64,000 bases of DNA from the human T2T-CHM13v2.0 reference genome, Homo sapiens. This document shows positions 15,415-26,311 of this stretch, one piece after another. The position numbers and the translations under genes are program-made. Positions within the stretch are counted from its first letter, which is position 1, and each line of letters starts with the position of its first letter. Location of the stretch: assembly GCF_009914755.1 (NCBI RefSeq), contig NC_060928.1; one strand, written 5' to 3'. Under the pieces are notes generated by a model. The model saw only the letters and a list, made by a program, of their open reading frames with translations, was not told the DNA's origin and ran no database searches.

Positions 15415-18400
15415 TTTTTTGTTGTTGTTTTTACATTTATAATGTCTTTATTGAAATAACATTGTCATACAATAAAGTAAAAATATGTAAACAATTATTT
15501 GATAAGTTTTGGTACATGTATACACCTATAAAACCACTATTACATGTAGATAATGGACAAATCCATCACAGCCAAAAGTTTTCTTCTGCATATTGTCACA
15601 TCTCTGCACATCCCCTTCCCCACTGCTAATCCTCTTCCCCAGGCAATCAGTAACCTGCTTCTGTCAGTTTAGATTAGTTTGCATTTTATGGAATTTTACA
15701 TAAACAAAATCCCAAAATACGTACTCTTTTGGTGTGGCTTTTTTCACTTGAGAAATAAAAATAAAATCTTAAACCTCCCAATCAACTGAACGAATCCTAA
15801 TCTCCATCTTGGCCAAGGGGAACCCAGAGAAACTTTAAAAACTGAGTTCCTGGCCATGACAGAATGGGAGGTTGGATACACCTCAGTATAACTCCTCTTT
15901 ATTAATCTTTAACCCAAGTGCTTTCCTAAGGAGTAAACAGAAACCAGCTGTAAAAAACAAAAAATGTAAAGCACATTCCTTTGTCTCCTTAGGCCAATCA
16001 TCTGAAGCCAGCAGCAGATGTGACAGCTCACCAGATTTACTGTGCATCTCTTCCTAAAAACTGACCATGATCACCAGACTAGTTTGGAGAGGACGCACAG
16101 AGAGGATTTTTGCATCCTTGGCATCACCTTTTGATGTCAGTGGGTTGAAAACTCTGCTCTTAGATCATGCTCACGCTGCCATTTTTAAATCATTTGACTC
16201 ATGAAGAGGCACAAAGCTCAATTGCACATGTGCACATTTCTCCTTTTATAATTATGACTCCGCTTATAGATTATTAAATATGTATATTCAGCCACCCTAT
16301 TCACCATAAATTCCGGTCTTACTCTTCCCTCACTCGAAGTGCTTGTTTCCAGATTCTGTCAGAGACTGTGCCTCCCTAGCCTGTCCGAATGGCCACTTTG
16401 CAGGATACAACCCTTTAGAAAAAACAAAGTTCTCCTTTGCAAATTTTTTAACCTTGTGACTCTTCAGTCGACATACTTAATATAATTATTTTGAGAGATC
16501 CAAAATATAATTATGTATATCAATAATGTATTCTTTTTATTGAAGAGTAGTATTCCATTATATGGAAATACAATTTGTTTACTCACTTACATGTTGATAG
16601 ACTGCATTGCTTCCAGTTTTTGACTATCGAAAATAAAAATAAAGCCACTACAAGTATTTATGCAGAAGGCTTTGTTTGAAAAAAATACCTTCAGTTTTGA
16701 AATACCTAGGATTGCAATATCTGTGTCCTATGGCAGGTATATTTTTAGCTTTTAGTTAAATGGCGACTGTTTGCAAAGGTAGTTGTGCCACTTTATATTC
16801 CTACCAGCAATTTAATGAGCATTTCATTTGAATCACATCTTCACCAAAATTTGGCATGGTTGGATTTTTTTAATTTTAGGTATACATACATATATATATA
16901 TAATTATATTATCGCGGTTTTAATTTGGGTTTCCTTAATAACTAATTATAATAGGTATCTGTTTATGTGCCTATTTTCTGTATGTATATATTATTTGGAG
17001 AAATGTCTATTTAGACATTTGTCCATTTGTTTATTAGTTTCTTTTATTTCTTATTGACCTTTGAGATTTATTTGTACATCCTGAACTCAAATTATTTTAC
17101 AAATATGTGATTTGCTAGCCATTTATATTAGCCTGTGACTTGTTTTTTTATTCTTTTACAGTGTCTTTTGAAAAGTAAAATCCTTACTTTTGATGAAGTC
17201 CAATTTATTGACTTTTTAATGTTAATATGTTGTGATGTTTTGTCTAAAAATCTTTGCCTAACCATTACTGTGTCATCTCCATTACTGCTTTACTTTTATC
17301 TATAAGTTTATAGCTTTAGGTTTTTCATTTCAGTCTGTAATCCAATTTGCATTCATTTTGGAAATGTGAGAAGTAAAGCTCTAATTTTCTTTTTTTTCCC
17401 ATAAGAATATTCAAATTTTCTAGTACTGAGTATTAAAATTACTATGTTTCTTCATTGAATTATCACTTTGTCAGAAATTAACAGATTTTAAATTTGTAGC
17501 TCTTGTTCTGGGTTTTCTATTTGTTTTACTAGTTTATTTATAGTAATAGCACGCTGTCTTGCTTAATGTAGTTTTATAATACTCTTGAAACAAGATAGTA
17601 AAAATTCTCAAACAATATATTTTTATATCTCAAAGTTGTCTTATTCCAGTTTCTTGCATTTTTATATGAATTTTGGAATTAGCTTTTTAATTTCTGCAAA
17701 ATGCTCTACAGAAATTTTGATAAACATTGCCTTGAAACTATACATTGATCTATGGAGCATTGACATTTTAAAATATTGAATTGTCTGAGCCATGAAATCA
17801 GTAATCTTTTTATTTATTTAAATTTTTTAAATTTCACTCACCAATGTTTCAGATTATACTTTGCCAAATTTATCTATGAATATTTAATTTTTCATACTAT
17901 GGTCAATTACATTGTTCTAATTTCAATTTCTGATTGTTACTAGTGTATAGAAATATAGTTGAGTTTACATATTGATCTTGTATTCTACAACTTTGATAAT
18001 TCACCTACTATTTTAGTAGCTATCAAAAATAAATTTAATAAAATTTCCTTCATAATCATGCCATCTATGAAACAAATAAACACATACCCAAGGACAGTTG
18101 TATTGTTTTCCAATGTAGATGCCCATTATGTTATTGATATTATTATTTGACTTGTTACAATGAGTAGCATTTTTAGTACTAGTCATTGTAAAAGAAATGA
18201 GTGGTATATGTTTACCTTGTTCATGATCTTTAAGGGAAAGCATTCAGTCTTTCATCATTAATAATAATGTTAGCTGTGTGTTTTTCAGAGGTCTTCAAAC
18301 AATTTCAGAAAGTTCTCTTCTATTCTTAGATTGCTGAGTATTAACTTCGTGAATATAAATTGAACTTATCATAAGATTGTTCTCTATGAAATTATCATGT

Positions 18401-21779: not shown

Positions 21780-21896
21780 CCCAGTATCAAGCAAAATGCT
21801 AAACATGCAACATATCATATTTCATCTCATCTTTTGACAATGCCTTGGAAGTTTTATCATCCCACTTTCTAAATGAAGTAATTAAATACAAGGCAA
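21780..21896 (-). mobile_element. MIR 3' half (5' half at ~24935-25011 on +)
   Basis: ttttatcatcccactttctaaatgaagtaatt is MIR core antisense. Confidence 0.6.
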
Positions 21897-21972
21897 TATC
21901 ATGGACTAAATATTAGTGTCACCACTCCCCCCGCCATTGATATTTTGAAATCTTATCCCCAGGCTGTGATGG
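21897..21972 (+). mobile_element. MLT1A LTR 5' piece (remainder at 25012-25326 on -)
   Basis: tatcatggactaaat...tattttgaaatcttatccccaggctgtgatgg. Confidence 0.8.
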
Positions 21973-22505
21973 TGTTACAGGAAAGGGATCTTGATCCAGA
22001 CACCAAGAGTGGGCTCTTGGATCTCGCATAAGAAAGAATTCAGGGAGAGTCTGCTGTGCAAAGTGAAAGCAAATTTATTAAGAAAGTAAAGGAATAAAAT
22101 AATGGCTATTCCATAGACAGAGCAGCCCTGAGGGCTGCTGGTTGCCCATTTTTATGGCTATTTCTTGATGATATGCTAAACAAGGGGTGAATTATTCATG
22201 CCTCCCCTTTTTAGTTGCCATGGCATTTGTAAACTGTCACGGTGCTGGTGGGAGTGAGTGTAGCAGTGAGGGTGACCAGAGGTCACTCTCATCACCATTT
22301 TGTTTTGATGGGTTTTGGCTGGCTCCTTTACTGCAACCTGTTTTATCAGCAAGGTCTTCATGACCTATATTTTGTGCTGACCTCCTATCTCATCCTGTGA
22401 ACTAGAATGCCTTAACCATCTGTGAATACAGCCCAGTAGATTTCAGCCTGATTTTACCCAGCTGCTATTTAAGATGGAGTTGCTCTGGTTCACAGCTGTC
22501 TGACA
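21973..22505 (-). mobile_element. MER41A ERV1 solo LTR
   Basis: Close match to MER41A antisense; ~23-bp internal deletion near 22213 relative to the second copy. Confidence 0.95.
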
Positions 22506-22645
22506 AATATAAAGGAAATGGTCAACCCCCACTAACCGTCATGACCTGAGCCAGTCCCTCTGGGTTAAAATTTAAAATTGCCCTGGTCAAAAAGAAAGTC
22601 CATTCAGAAGGCCAGGGGGCCTTAGCATTTTATTGTTGGTTTACA
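22506..22645 (-). mobile_element. MER4(B/D)-like LTR 5' piece
   Basis: Reverse complement reads tgtaaaccaacaataaaatgctaaggccccc...gaatggacttt. Confidence 0.8.
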
Positions 22646-22776
22646 GGGTTCTTTATGCAGGAACATTAAGTACAAATCAAGGCTATCCTGGAAAACAAGG
22701 ATGCCTGGTCATTCTATTTATAGTGGATGTTTTCTCTGAAGTTTGGACCATTGCTGAGACCTGTGCGACGTTGCAT

Positions 22777-23209
22777 TGTAAACCAAAATGTACATGACAC
22801 AGGTCTCAAACAATTTAGAAGTTGATTTTGCCAAGGTTAAGGAATATGCCAGGGAGACAGATCCGTGCTCTTCTCTAAAGATAAATTTGAGGGTTTCAGT
22901 ATTTAAAGGGGAAAAGCAGGGTAGATGAGAAAGAGGGAGGATATGGTCACATTACTGAATCCATACATTGCAAGAGAAAAGGAGTAGGTAGGAGAATAGT
23001 CAATTATGGATTCATCTGGTGCTCACTAATTGACACTTTACATAAGATAAGGTGAACATAGAGTATCTACCTATGCAGATATTTAACCTTCTATCTCTAC
23101 GTGATGAGAAACAAAGGGAAGGCAGCTTCTTGCATGGCTCAGCTTTCAGGTTAATTTTTTTCTTTTGGCAGAGTGAATTGGGATCCCAAGTTTTTATTTT
23201 CCTTTCACA
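22777..23209 (-). mobile_element. MER4A/C-like ERV1 solo LTR
   Basis: Ends gaattgggatcccaagtttttattttcctttcaca; perfect TSD gcat (22773-22776, 23210-23213). Confidence 0.88.
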
Positions 23210-23577
23210 GCATCAACCCTGGGTTAGGTAACACCATCTCCACGGAAATGGCCTGACATCTTGTATAAAAACTAACCTTACAGTGACCACCAAATAGGCG
23301 CAAAATGTGTACAGGTGGGGAGCTGCAATATAACTTCAGGCTTCCCCAAAAAATGTTTCATCTGAGACTCTATGGTTGAACAACAGTCAGATAGGTTACT
23401 GGATGTGGCCCTTTTCAAGTAATGCACTAATTTATTCATTTCTGCAAGACAAATCATGTAAAAAAAAGACGAATAATCAGGCTTAAGGGTTAAACATGAG
23501 CCAGGTAGTCCTGAGACTTAACTCTGGGGAGAAAACGGCAATCACTGAACCATTTCTAAACATATAGGTAATAATAG

Positions 23578-24232
23578 TGAAACCACCTTTGCAAAAATCA
23601 TATCAGTAAAAATAACTGTATAGTGATCTAACCCACCCCTACCCCCATCTTACCTTTCCCTTAATTATTCCTGGGATTTTGGACCAAGCTAGAGAGACAT
23701 TTAGGCTCTGGTTTAAATGATAACAGCCCTTCCCCAAAATTCAACCACCTTTATAGAGCTAATGAAAGACTATCAGGCTGAGGGAAGAGAGAAATCTGAA
23801 TTCTACTAAGGTATAGTCATAGACTGCCAGCCATTCCTGCACCTAACAACCACTACAGTAGATTAGTCTTCTGAGATATCTTTTCAGGGTTTTTTTTTTG
23901 CATGTCTAACATCCATGGCTCCATCTGTACCTGCCAAGCCTGCTCCTGTGGCCTTACGCAGAAGTGATTCAGCACGCAGGAGGACAGCTTTGAACTCCTA
24001 TGATTCATCTTTGCCCCAGTCAATCAGTAGCAAGCCTAGCAACCACCACCCCTTCCTCCAAATTGCATTTGAAAAACCCGTAACCTACAAGTGTTGAATG
24101 AGACTGATTTGAGTACAAACTCCATCTTCCACTTGGCAAGGCCAGCCTTGTGTGTATTAAATTCTTTTTTTACTGCAATGCTATGGTCTTTCTTTGTGCA
24201 GCAGGCAGAAAGAAGCCCTCTGGCAGTTATAA
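23578..24232 (+). mobile_element. LTR8-family-like ERV1 solo LTR
   Basis: tgaaaccacctttgcaaaa start; gagactgatttgagt...ctccatc; ends ggcagtta. Confidence 0.8.
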
Positions 24233-24387
24233 CATAATCTAATCATTAAATATTTTCTTGGATATAACATAGAAAATAAATTTTGCTGCACGGGTGTTGC
24301 AGGTGATAAGTTATCACAAGTATATGGTCATAGATAATATTAACTTGAAGTAACGTGGTAGAAGGAGACAAAAAACATAAAAGTTGT

Positions 24388-24463
24388 ATGTTTTGTACTA
24401 GTTTTGTATAACCATATTAATTTATGTAAATTAATATGGTTATACAAAACTAGTATAAAACAT
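24388..24463. repeat. AT-rich palindrome, 37-bp arms, 2-bp spacer
   Basis: 24388-24424 is the reverse complement of 24427-24463 with 1 mismatch. Confidence 0.95.
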
Positions 24464-25011
24464 GAAACTACTATAAAACATATTAGTTTATGTAAATTAA
24501 TGTTTATATAAAACTAGTAATAACTAATATGATATACTAGTTATATCAAAAGGAAGGATATGAATTAGGAGTAGAATTAACAAACATGGATAGGAATTTT
24601 GTAAAATTTGTGGCTTGGTATCACCCACTGAGAGGAAATATAGGACAAAAATTTGTTTTTGGCAAGGTCTATGAGTTGGGGAATGGGGAATAATTAATGA
24701 AAGTGGAAAAGAGAGAAAAACAAAAAGAAATAATTCTTGTACGTCATGATTGTGCCAGGTTCTGCCCAATTTAACTTCAGTTGTGTATATTTTTTGTTTC
24801 ACAAAGTAATTCCACTATCCAAAGTGAATTAATATAATTTATTTTTCTGAATAGATAATATTTATCTTATCAGATAATATCTATCTTATAATTTATCTTT
24901 TTGAACTGTTTCATTGACATGGGTCAGCATACTGTTTGAGAACTGGATCAGAGATTAAGGAAATACTTGGGTTTGATGCCTACTGGACTTTGCAGTATTA
25001 CTTAACCCATC

Positions 25012-25326
25012 TGTCTTAGTCAGTTCAAGCCTTTTATAACCAAGTATCAGAGTCTGCATGGCCATGACAGATTTATTTCTCACAGTTCTGAGAGAACGAG
25101 AATCAGGAATGAGAATGGGAAGAAGCTGGGAATTCTAAGTACCTGCAGATTTGATAACTGGTAACTGACCACTTTCTGGTTGACAGTTGTCTTTACCCTG
25201 TGCCCTTACATAATGGAAGGGGTGAGGAGCTCTCTGAAGCCTCTATTATAAATACAACAATTCCATTCATAAATATTCTCTGTGCTCATAACCTAATCTC
25301 CCAAAGGCCCCACCTCCAATTACCAT
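25012..25326 (-). mobile_element. MLT1A LTR main piece
   Basis: tgtcttagtcagttc...atttatttctcacagttctg...ctcccaaaggccccacctccaattaccat. Confidence 0.85.
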
Positions 25327-25879
25327 TGTCAGATACGTGTGAACTAGAGTAACTCCATTTTAAATAGGAGCTGGGTAAAATGAGGCTGAAACCTACTGGG
25401 CTGCATTCCCAGATGGTTGAGGCATTCTAATTCACAGGATGAGATAGGAGGTCAGCACAAAACACAGGTCATAAAGACCTTGCTGATAAAACAGGTTGCA
25501 GTAAAGGAGCCGGCCAAAACCCACCAAAACCAAAATGGCAATGAGAGTGACCTCTGGTCGTCCTCACTGCTACACTCCCACCAGCGCCTTGACAGTTTAC
25601 AAATGCCATGGCAACATCAGGAAGTTACCCTACATGGTCTAAAAGGGGAGGCACGAATAATCCACCCCTTGTTTGGCATATCATCAAGAAATAACCATAA
25701 AAATGGGCAACCAGCAGCCCTCAAGGCTGCTCTGTCTATGGAGTAGCTATTCTTTTATTCCTCTACTTTCTTAATAAACTTGCTTTCACTTTGCACTGCA
25801 GACTCGCCCTGAATTCTTTCTTGTGCGAGATCCAAGAGCCCCCTCTTGGGGTCTAGATCCGGACCACTTTTCTGTAGCA
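25327..25879 (+). mobile_element. MER41A ERV1 solo LTR (full length, 553 bp)
   Basis: tgtcaga...ctgggtaaaatgaggctgaaacctactgggctgcattccc...aataaacttgctttcac...ctgtagca. Confidence 0.95.
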
Positions 25880-26119
25880 CATTGATCCCAGGTGTTTAGA
25901 AAAACTCAACCAATTGTCAAACAGAAAATTTAAAATGCTACCTGAAAGCCTCCCCTCCCCCACACCTCCACTGCCTCCCACAATGTATAAAATCCCAACC
26001 ACCTCGGACACGTGTTCTCAGCATCTCCTGAGGGCTATGTCACAGACCATGGTTATTCATATTTGGCTCAGAATAAATCTATTCAAATATTTTACAGAGT
26101 TTGACTCTTTTCATTGACA
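25880..26119 (+). mobile_element. MER4(B/D)-like LTR 3' piece
   Basis: actcaaccaattgtcaa...catatttggctcagaataaatct..tcaaatattttacagagtttgactcttttcattgaca. Confidence 0.85.
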
Positions 26120-26311
26120 TTCTATAAAATATTCTAGTTTTAAAAAGTATGTCACTTTTTCTACAAGAGCATTTTAGCTAAAACAAAATTAGCCTTACTT
26201 TGGTCATTATTGTGAGGTCTTTAGGGTGCAGGCTGTTACAGACCTTGAATTATTCAGGAACTGCCTATAACATACATGTTTCACTGGGGCCTTAGAAGAT
26301 ACAGGAGGCAA

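What the first reader, a model, noticed from the sequence alone, without database searches (positions are those of the whole stretch)
21973..25879. ~2.8-kb inversion mediated by two inverted MER41A solo LTRs (swapped TSDs)
Seen: two MER41A copies lie in opposite orientation (21973-22505 minus, 25327-25879 plus) and neither has its own TSD. The flanks pair across copies instead. ccat (25323-25326) precedes the right copy's 5' end and atgg (21969-21972, ccat reversed) abuts the left copy's 3' end. tatt (reverse of aata, 22506-22509) pairs with catt (25880-25883). An MLT1A LTR is split at ccat into a minus piece (25012-25326) and a plus piece (21897-21972). A MER4-type LTR is split at t/catt into a minus 5' piece (22506-22645) and a plus 3' piece (25880-26119). 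Reversing 22506-25326 restores both hosts and both 4-bp TSDs. Known: ERV1 LTRs make 4-bp TSDs, and ectopic recombination between inverted repeats inverts the spacer. Inference: this haplotype carries the derived orientation, which may be lineage-specific or polymorphic/recurrent.
Basis: partly seen in the sequence, partly recalled or inferred. Interest (0 to 1): 0.85.

Follow-up and report, generated by a model that had tools for sequence, protein, structure and literature searches.

The report
Old inversion between two inverted LTRs
Two copies of an ancient retroviral LTR lying head-to-head on human chromosome 4 bracket a 2.8-kb stretch that was flipped by recombination between them; this is a well-known kind of rearrangement, it lies in a gene-poor region, and one of its two junctions is not as clean as first thought.

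Summary
The inverted repeat is real. Left LTR 21973-22505 (-) and right LTR 25327-25879 (+) differ at 46 of 528 aligned bases. Neither has its own 4-bp target-site duplication (TSD). One crosswise TSD is perfect: atgg at 21969-72 and ccat at 25323-26.

The MLT1-type LTR really is split there. In 17 of 29 natural copies the two pieces abut with exactly a 4-base overlap. So 22506-25326 is inverted relative to its flanks.

The second half of the claim fails. The two MER4-type pieces belong to one roughly 600-bp LTR family and are collinear after flipping. However, about 149 bp of family sequence is missing between them: 0 of 24 natural copies are contiguous. That LTR also lacks its own TSD. So tatt/catt (3 of 4) is not a demonstrated TSD.

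The two LTRs are no more alike than unrelated family members and share no long identical tract.

Best reading: two independent insertions followed by recombination between the inverted LTRs, probably long ago. Age, lineage specificity and polymorphism could not be tested here. The mechanism is known (Lee et al. 2008), so interest is low.

The parts
21897..21972 (+). Measured homology to natural copies starts at 21901. The last 4 bases (atgg, 21969-21972) are one copy of the TSD.
   Evidence: The alignment to the sequence upstream of the other piece ends with exactly a 4-base overlap in 17 of 29 natural copies.
21973..22505 (-). Left MER41A-like solo LTR, 533 bp, with TGT...ACA ends. It lacks the 23 nt that the right copy has at 25616-25638 and has 4 extra nt.
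   Evidence: It is 87.0-90.7% identical to 12 other genomic copies and 91.3% to the right copy.
22506..22645 (-). 5'-terminal roughly 140 bp of a MER4-type LTR of about 600 bp. 22645 is the family's 5' terminus. tatt (reverse complement of 22506-22509) abuts the left LTR's 5' end.
22646..25011 (.). Rest of the inverted segment. It holds two other interspersed repeats (about 22773-23216 and about 23573-24235) and a locus-specific AT-rich palindrome (24377-24474). No proviral internal sequence was detected.
25012..25326 (-). 3' piece of the same MLT1-type LTR. ccat (25323-25326) is the second copy of the TSD.
   Evidence: Natural copies align from the very first base next to the right LTR.
25327..25879 (+). 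Right MER41A-like solo LTR, 553 bp, full length relative to genomic copies.
   Evidence: It is 89-93% identical to the 39 full-length hits at other loci and 88.4-92.0% to the 12 copies aligned.
25880..26119 (+). 3' part of a MER4-type LTR. It starts about 149 bp downstream of where the other piece stops in family coordinates and ends at the family's 3' terminus. It has a further internal deletion of roughly 55-65 bp.
22506..25326 (.). The segment now in inverted orientation. The true crossover lies somewhere inside the two LTRs and cannot be placed from this haplotype alone.
   Evidence: Inference.

Best explanation
One went into an MLT1-type LTR with a normal 4-bp TSD (atgg). The other went into, or next to, a MER4-type LTR.

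Homologous recombination between the two inverted copies then flipped everything between the crossover points. At that time the copies were either solo LTRs or proviruses that later collapsed to solo LTRs. The flip left two chimeric, in-register, full-length LTRs whose flanks pair crosswise. This is the same logic as retrotransposon recombination-mediated inversion described for Alu and L1.

Shown here: the inverted LTR pair, the exact split of the MLT1 LTR with a swapped TSD, and the orientation and order of the MER4 pieces.

Inferred: that the crossover was homologous, and that the event is old, from when the copies were more alike.

Unexplained: the loss of about 149 bp of MER4 sequence flush with an LTR terminus. 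Candidates are a deletion already present in the MER4 copy, an aberrant second integration that deleted target DNA, or a deletion made during or after the inversion.
For: - The inverted repeat is confined to the LTRs.
- Both LTRs are full length and in register with natural copies.
- The family makes 4-bp TSDs: 8 of 16 natural copies have 4 of 4 matching and 5 of 16 have 3 of 4.
- atgg/ccat pair crosswise at 4 of 4.
- The MLT1 pieces abut with exactly a 4-base overlap in 17 of 29 natural copies, and the score beat all 200 shuffles in 20 of 29.
- The MER4 pieces are the 5'-terminal and 3'-terminal parts of one LTR family, and in natural copies they lie in the same order and orientation.
- The left and right LTRs behave like two unrelated family members. 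They are 91.3% identical, against 87.0-92.0% to 12 others. They share 3 minority states, and 27 of 171 pairs of unrelated copies share 3 or more.
- No proviral internal sequence lies next to the inner LTR ends.
- The mechanism and the swapped-TSD hallmark are documented, and 12 of 49 such inversions carried deletions (Lee et al. 2008, PMC2603318; passages read).
Against: - The second junction is not clean. About 149 bp of MER4 family sequence is absent: 0 of 24 natural copies are contiguous.
- tatt/catt match at only 3 of 4, which chance gives about 5% of the time.
- The MER4-type LTR has no TSD of its own (accc vs ttct, 1 of 4). Of 18 natural copies with both ends found, 15 have 3 or more of 4 and only 1 has 1 of 4.
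- Its 5' piece is more diverged from natural copies than they are from each other (median 78.2% vs 86.3%), while its 3' piece is typical (85.3% vs 86.1%). The two pieces may therefore not come from one LTR copy.
- No un-inverted orthologue was seen, so neither the chimerism of the LTRs nor the direction of change is shown directly.
Confidence: 0.75

Rival explanations
1. Inversion with inverted duplication of a single LTR. Only one LTR ever integrated, in the MLT1 element. A staggered-break or replication-based rearrangement then inverted the neighbouring 2.8 kb, copied the LTR to the far end in inverted orientation, and lost about 149 bp at the second breakpoint inside the MER4 LTR.
For: - The layout P-Q-rc(M)-rc(Q)-N matches the present order exactly.
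- It explains why the second site has no convincing TSD and has lost 149 bp.
- Only one perfect TSD exists.
Against: - The duplicated unit would have to begin and end within 1 base of both LTR termini. Random breaks would not do that.
- The two copies differ by 8.7%, as much as unrelated copies do. The duplication would therefore have to be about as old as the insertion itself.
Confidence: 0.07
2. Single provirus split open. The right LTR was the 5' LTR and the left LTR the 3' LTR of one provirus integrated in the MLT1 element. A later rearrangement removed the internal region and joined the inner LTR ends to a MER4 LTR 2.8 kb away.
For: - The MLT1 junctions (right LTR's 5' end and left LTR's 3' end, with a 4-bp TSD) are exactly those of one concerted integration.
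- The right copy is the left copy's nearest relative among 13 compared (91.3% vs 90.7% or less).
- catt after the right LTR equals the first four bases seen after one natural copy (L108) that is followed by internal-like sequence.
Against: - It needs breaks exactly at both inner LTR boundaries plus a deletion flush with an LTR end.
- No trace of internal sequence remains.
- The shared minority states (3) are within the range for unrelated copies.
- catt is also accounted for by MER4 homology.
Confidence: 0.05
3. The inversion is recent, human-lineage-specific, or still polymorphic or recurrent.
For: - Inverted repeats about 550 bp long and 2.8 kb apart are the right architecture.
- Small repeat-mediated inversions can be polymorphic: 10 of the 49 loci in Lee et al. 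2008 were polymorphic within a species (passage read).
Against: - The LTRs are 8.7% diverged. The longest identical run is 38 bp, within the 33-68 bp range expected from randomly placed differences, so no conversion tract is visible.
- Lee et al. report that sequence identity matters for such events.
- The family is 45-60 million years old according to a passage in PMC6292174. Most of the time available for recombination, and the best substrate for it, lay in the distant past.
- This was not directly tested.
Confidence: 0.05
4. Assembly artefact, or an older break-and-rejoin inversion into whose two breakpoints LTRs later inserted.
For: None was found. These are listed for completeness.
Against: - The atgg/ccat duplication on the two MLT1 halves is what one integration leaves, not what a break leaves.
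- Two later insertions exactly at two old breakpoints is very unlikely.
- The repeat arms are 8.7% diverged, so they are easy to tell apart in long reads (inference).
Confidence: 0.02

Closest known systems
Retrotransposon recombination-mediated inversion (RRMI), Lee et al. 2008, PLoS One 3:e4047 (PMC2603318; passages read)
   Same: - Two homologous retroelements in inverted orientation sit at the ends of the inverted segment.
- The elements become chimeric, and their TSDs no longer match each other but pair crosswise.
- The size (2.8 kb) is within the reported range of 166 bp to 81 kb.
- A quarter of the reported events (12 of 49) also carried deletions.
   Different: - Those 49 cases are Alu and L1 pairs with 7-20-bp TSDs, and they were ascertained as human-chimpanzee differences with the ancestral state seen in an outgroup.
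- Here the elements are ERV1-type solo LTRs with 4-bp TSDs, no outgroup was seen, and the missing 149 bp lies flush with an intact LTR terminus.
Rearrangements between endogenous retroviruses inferred from mismatched flanking duplications (Hughes and Coffin 2001, HERV-K). Recalled from memory.
   Same: The reasoning is the same: an LTR or provirus whose two flanks do not form a TSD has recombined with another copy.
   Different: As I recall it, that work concerns much younger HERV-K proviruses and uses LTR phylogeny. This locus is an older family and is reduced to solo LTRs.
Non-classical ERV insertions with target-site deletion (Shin et al. 2013, PMC3625200; passages read)
   Same: An ERV-derived insertion that lacks a TSD and is accompanied by loss of target DNA (6 bp to 10,207 bp). 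This is a possible precedent for the missing 149 bp.
   Different: Those insertions are truncated at both ends and carry junction microhomology, consistent with capture at a DNA break. Here both LTR termini are intact to the last base.

Membership tests
Repeat-mediated (non-allelic homologous recombination) inversion of the RRMI type | Homologous elements in inverted orientation at both ends of the inverted segment, with homology confined to the elements | tested here: met
   The arms span 21972-22506 and 25326-25880, and homology ends at the LTR termini.
Repeat-mediated (non-allelic homologous recombination) inversion of the RRMI type | Each element lacks its own TSD, and the TSDs pair crosswise | tested here: inconclusive
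   Own pairs match at 1 of 4 and 2 of 4. The crosswise pair ccat/ccat is 4 of 4. The crosswise pair tatt/catt is 3 of 4, which chance gives about 5% of the time.
Repeat-mediated (non-allelic homologous recombination) inversion of the RRMI type | Flipping the spacer restores continuity of the interrupted host sequence at both junctions | tested here: inconclusive
   The MLT1 junction is restored exactly (17 of 29 natural copies). The MER4 junction is not: about 149 bp is missing, and 0 of 24 natural copies are contiguous.
Repeat-mediated (non-allelic homologous recombination) inversion of the RRMI type | An un-inverted ancestral state in an outgroup or other haplotype, with the present elements being chimeras of the ancestral two | not testable with these tools
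   No primate genomes or human haplotypes are held. The tool reports that G000 'has no relatives here'.
MER41A / ERV1 (gammaretrovirus-like) solo LTR | TG...CA termini and 4-bp TSDs in the family | tested here: met
   All 16 natural copies start TGT and end ACA. TSD matches: 4 of 4 in 8 copies, 3 of 4 in 5 copies. The other 3 are followed by a shared sequence, probably internal.
MER41A / ERV1 (gammaretrovirus-like) solo LTR | A match to the curated MER41A consensus (Dfam/Repbase) rather than to MER41B-G | not testable with these tools
No repeat library is available. What is measured: about 550 bp in length, more than 3,700 first-look candidates in the genome, and 89-93% identity among copies.
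MER41A / ERV1 (gammaretrovirus-like) solo LTR | Solo state: no proviral internal sequence next to either inner end | tested here: met
   The inner ends abut MER4-type LTR sequence directly. The spacer holds only two other, more diverged repeat families.
One MER4-type solo LTR split by an insertion | The two pieces are contiguous in family coordinates, share a 4-bp TSD around the insert, and the LTR has its own TSD | tested here: not met
   The median gap is 149 bp. The LTR's own flanks are accc vs ttct, matching at 1 of 4, against 3 or more of 4 in 15 of 18 natural copies. The two pieces are unequally diverged.

The most novel reading that the evidence does not exclude
The two LTRs are not two insertions. 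They are the 5' and 3' LTRs of one provirus (or one LTR and its exact inverted copy). A single rearrangement joined their inner ends to a MER4 LTR 2.8 kb away, with breakpoints at the LTR termini, inverting the host DNA and deleting about 149 bp. That would point to an LTR-end-specific way of making inversions, perhaps involving integrase, rather than ordinary homologous recombination.
Probability: 0.06. Interest if true: 0.5.

Novelty: new member of a known kind. Interest (0 to 1): 0.2.

Why it matters
It matters little on its own. The locus lies in a gene desert: the annotation supplied with the finding lists no gene within 100 kb after the window, and only an uncharacterised lncRNA whose nearest exon ends at 16164. 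The mechanism, recombination between inverted retroelements, is textbook.

The locus is a tidy worked example of two points:
- Swapped 4-bp TSDs plus split older repeats can reveal an inversion from a single haplotype.
- A 4-bp 'TSD' matching at 3 of 4 is weak evidence unless the host repeat is shown to be contiguous.

If the inversion proved polymorphic, it would add one small entry to inversion catalogues. The flush 149-bp loss at an intact LTR end is a minor curiosity about how old ERV integrations can go wrong.

Tried and rejected
I used searches and short stretches instead.
- I asked whether the missing 149 bp of the MER4-type LTR sits elsewhere in the window. Seven natural full-length copies hit only the two known pieces, plus a weak 63% match at 15746-15905.
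- I asked whether the right-hand MER4 piece belongs to a younger, shorter related family rather than to the family of the left-hand piece. The shorter family does exist; it starts about 165 bp into the longer one. Even so, the right-hand piece scores like a member of the longer family: 85.3% to it, against 86.1% among its members. Rejected.
- I asked whether the two MER41A-like LTRs are sister copies or have been homogenised. They share 3 minority states, all non-CpG, but 27 of 171 pairs of unrelated copies share 3 or more. There is no excess.
- The genome search with the left LTR did not list the right LTR, and the reverse was also true. Only 40 of about 3,700 candidates are scored, so those lists are not rankings. 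I compared copies directly instead.
- Literature searches for this locus or for MER41-mediated inversions found nothing specific. Inversion catalogues and their supplements were not examined, and Table S1 of Lee et al. is an old .xls file that cannot be read here. 'Not in print' therefore rests on those three searches only.
- Correction to my notebook entry: the right counts are 20 of 29 (not 22), and 15 of 18 (not 16 of 19).
Full report
**What is there**

The window holds exactly two copies of a roughly 550-bp LTR. They lie in opposite orientation: 21973-22505 on the minus strand and 25327-25879 on the plus strand.
- The repeat finder reports inverted arms that together span 21972-22506 and 25326-25880, at 88-95% complementarity per arm. 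It finds nothing beyond the LTR ends.
- In a pairwise alignment the copies are in register from TGT to ACA. They differ by 46 substitutions in 528 aligned positions (8.7%). The left copy also lacks a 23-base stretch and has a 4-base and a 1-base length difference.
- Each flank, read in the LTR's own orientation: the left copy is tatt[LTR]ccat and the right copy is ccat[LTR]catt.
- So neither copy has its own 4-bp duplication. One crosswise pair is perfect and the other matches at 3 of 4 positions.

I recognise the LTR as MER41-like only from memory. What was measured:
- The right LTR finds 39 full-length copies at other loci at 89-93% identity, out of about 3,800 first-look candidates.
- All 16 natural copies fetched with flanks start TGT and end ACA.
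- Of those 16, 8 have a perfect 4-bp duplication and 5 have 3 of 4. The remaining 3 (0-2 of 4) are followed by similar sequence beginning (T/C)ATTTCT, identical in two of them. I take this for proviral internal sequence.
- So the family makes 4-bp duplications, and 3-of-4 matches are common at its age.
- One passage in PMC6292174 describes MER41 as a gammaretroviral LTR that entered anthropoid primates 45-60 million years ago, with 7,190 copies.

**The MLT1-type junction is exact**

The stretch running leftwards from 25326 matches old LTR copies across the genome starting at its first base. For 29 such natural copies I aligned window 21880-21972 to the 120 bases upstream of that point.
- In 17 of 29 copies the alignment, projected to base 21972, ends exactly four bases past the base aligned to 25326.
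- In 20 of 29 copies the alignment score beat all 200 shuffles.
- The other 12 copies gave projected overlaps of -1, 5, 5, 5, 6, 6, 11, 11, 12, 21, 21 and 57, mostly from short or non-significant alignments.
- One MLT1-type LTR was therefore interrupted by one integration that duplicated atgg. Its two halves now lie 3.3 kb apart, on opposite strands, each next to a different LTR copy.
- This alone shows that 22506-25326 is inverted relative to its flanks.

**The MER4-type junction is not exact**

The piece 22645 down to 22506 and the piece 25880-26119 belong to one LTR family.
- Among 29 natural copies, homology begins sharply at the base equivalent to 22645 and ends about 605 bases later, at the equivalent of 26119.
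- In natural copies the two pieces lie in the same order and orientation.
- Of the 58 loci examined, 24 contained both parts. In 20 of these the parts are separated by 134-157 bp, and in 4 by 446-724 bp. The median over all 24 is 149 bp, and none is contiguous.
- The missing stretch is not elsewhere in the window.
- This LTR has no duplication of its own: accc against ttct is 1 of 4. Of 18 natural copies with both ends found, 15 have 3 or more of 4 and only 1 has 1 of 4 (in the other 11 of 29 the 3' end was not found).
- Its 5' piece is more diverged from natural copies (median 78.2%) than they are from each other (86.3%). Its 3' piece is typical (85.3% against 86.1%).
- tatt/catt is therefore not a demonstrated target-site duplication. 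Chance gives 3 or more of 4 matches in 13 of 256 cases.

**Relationship of the two LTRs**

- Against 12 other copies, the left LTR is 87.0-90.7% identical and the right LTR 88.4-92.0%. To each other they are 91.3% identical.
- They share three minority states, all outside CpG. With 19 comparators, 27 of 171 pairs of unrelated copies share three or more.
- Differences are spread over the whole length: 23 sites where only the left copy departs from most others and 14 where only the right does.
- The longest identical run is 38 bp, against 33-68 bp expected from random placement of the differences.
- So there is no sign of sisterhood, homogenisation or a recent conversion tract.

**Mechanism**

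The best explanation is two independent integrations followed by homologous recombination between the inverted copies. This swaps the flanks and inverts the spacer.
- It is the mechanism Lee et al. (2008) describe for Alu and L1 pairs. They list mismatched TSDs as the hallmark, stress sequence identity as a factor, and found deletions at 12 of 49 events (passages read).
- Intact termini at all four LTR ends argue that integrase made all four junctions. That is why I rank duplicative or single-provirus models low.

The flush 149-bp loss has three candidate explanations, and none is compelling:
- The MER4 copy already carried that deletion and the LTR happened to land on its junction. This keeps tatt/catt as a decayed real duplication but needs a coincidence of roughly 1 in 100 (my estimate).
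- The second integration itself was aberrant and deleted target DNA. The documented non-classical HERV-K insertions with target deletions are truncated at both ends, unlike this LTR.
- A deletion during or after the inversion happened to end at the LTR terminus.

**Age**

This cannot be read from one haplotype. Three observations make an old, fixed event the more likely reading:
- The copies are now 8.7% apart, with no long identical block.
- Identity favours such recombination.
- The family is tens of millions of years old.

This is inference. Alu pairs of similar divergence do recombine. I put recent, lineage-specific or polymorphic status at about 5%.

**Novelty and limits**

- Three literature searches found no description of this locus or of MER41-mediated inversions. 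Inversion catalogues and their supplements were not examined.
- No primate or pangenome sequence could be reached, so the decisive test, the orientation in outgroups and other haplotypes, remains to be done.
- The kind of event is well known and the locus is intergenic, so interest is low.

Noticed in passing
window 24377-24474 (wider 24370-24525): A near-perfect AT-rich palindrome lies inside the inverted segment: two 48-nt arms, 90% complementary, with a 2-nt spacer. As single-stranded DNA it folds at -37.6 kcal/mol, z = -9.5 against shuffles. It has no other copy in the genome by the own-genome search. A partial third copy of the arm sits at 24476-24513.
   Followed up: partly
window 22646-22649 and 26120-26123: The MER4-type LTR whose two ends abut the MER41A-like LTRs has no TSD of its own (accc vs ttct, 1 of 4). 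Its 5' piece is about 8 points more diverged from natural copies than its 3' piece. The two pieces may come from different insertions, or the locus may have had an earlier rearrangement.
   Followed up: partly
window about 25953-25967: The 3' MER4-type piece has a second internal deletion of roughly 55-65 bp relative to natural copies. In natural copy L066, 78 bases correspond to about 14 bases here.
   Followed up: no
loci L033-L060 (natural copies found with window 25880-26125): A younger, shorter related LTR family shares the 3' two-thirds of the roughly 600-bp MER4-type family. In 17 of the 21 copies that could be placed it starts about 165-185 bases into the longer family and lacks the part homologous to window 22506-22645. 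Within that family, identity in the 3' region has a median of 92.7%.
   Followed up: partly
loci L106, L108, L113 (natural MER41A-like copies): Three natural copies are followed by TATTTCTGGTGA (twice) or CATTTCTCTGTC, probably the start of the proviral internal region. The first four bases equal the tetramers tatt and catt next to the window's LTRs. For catt after the right LTR this is also explained by MER4 homology. It is probably a coincidence.
   Followed up: no
window 22213-22214 (left LTR) vs 25616-25638 (right LTR): The left LTR has a private 23-base deletion. Natural copies align to the right LTR over its full 553 bases, so they retain this stretch.
   Followed up: partly
window 15746-15905: Weak match (63% identity) to the 5' part of the MER4-type family. 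This is probably an older related fragment unconnected with the inversion.
   Followed up: no
window 22773-23216 and about 23573-24235: Two further interspersed repeats lie inside the inverted segment. One is about 440 bp with many genomic copies at 78-82% identity. The other is about 650 bp with copies at 74-77%. Neither was named.
   Followed up: no
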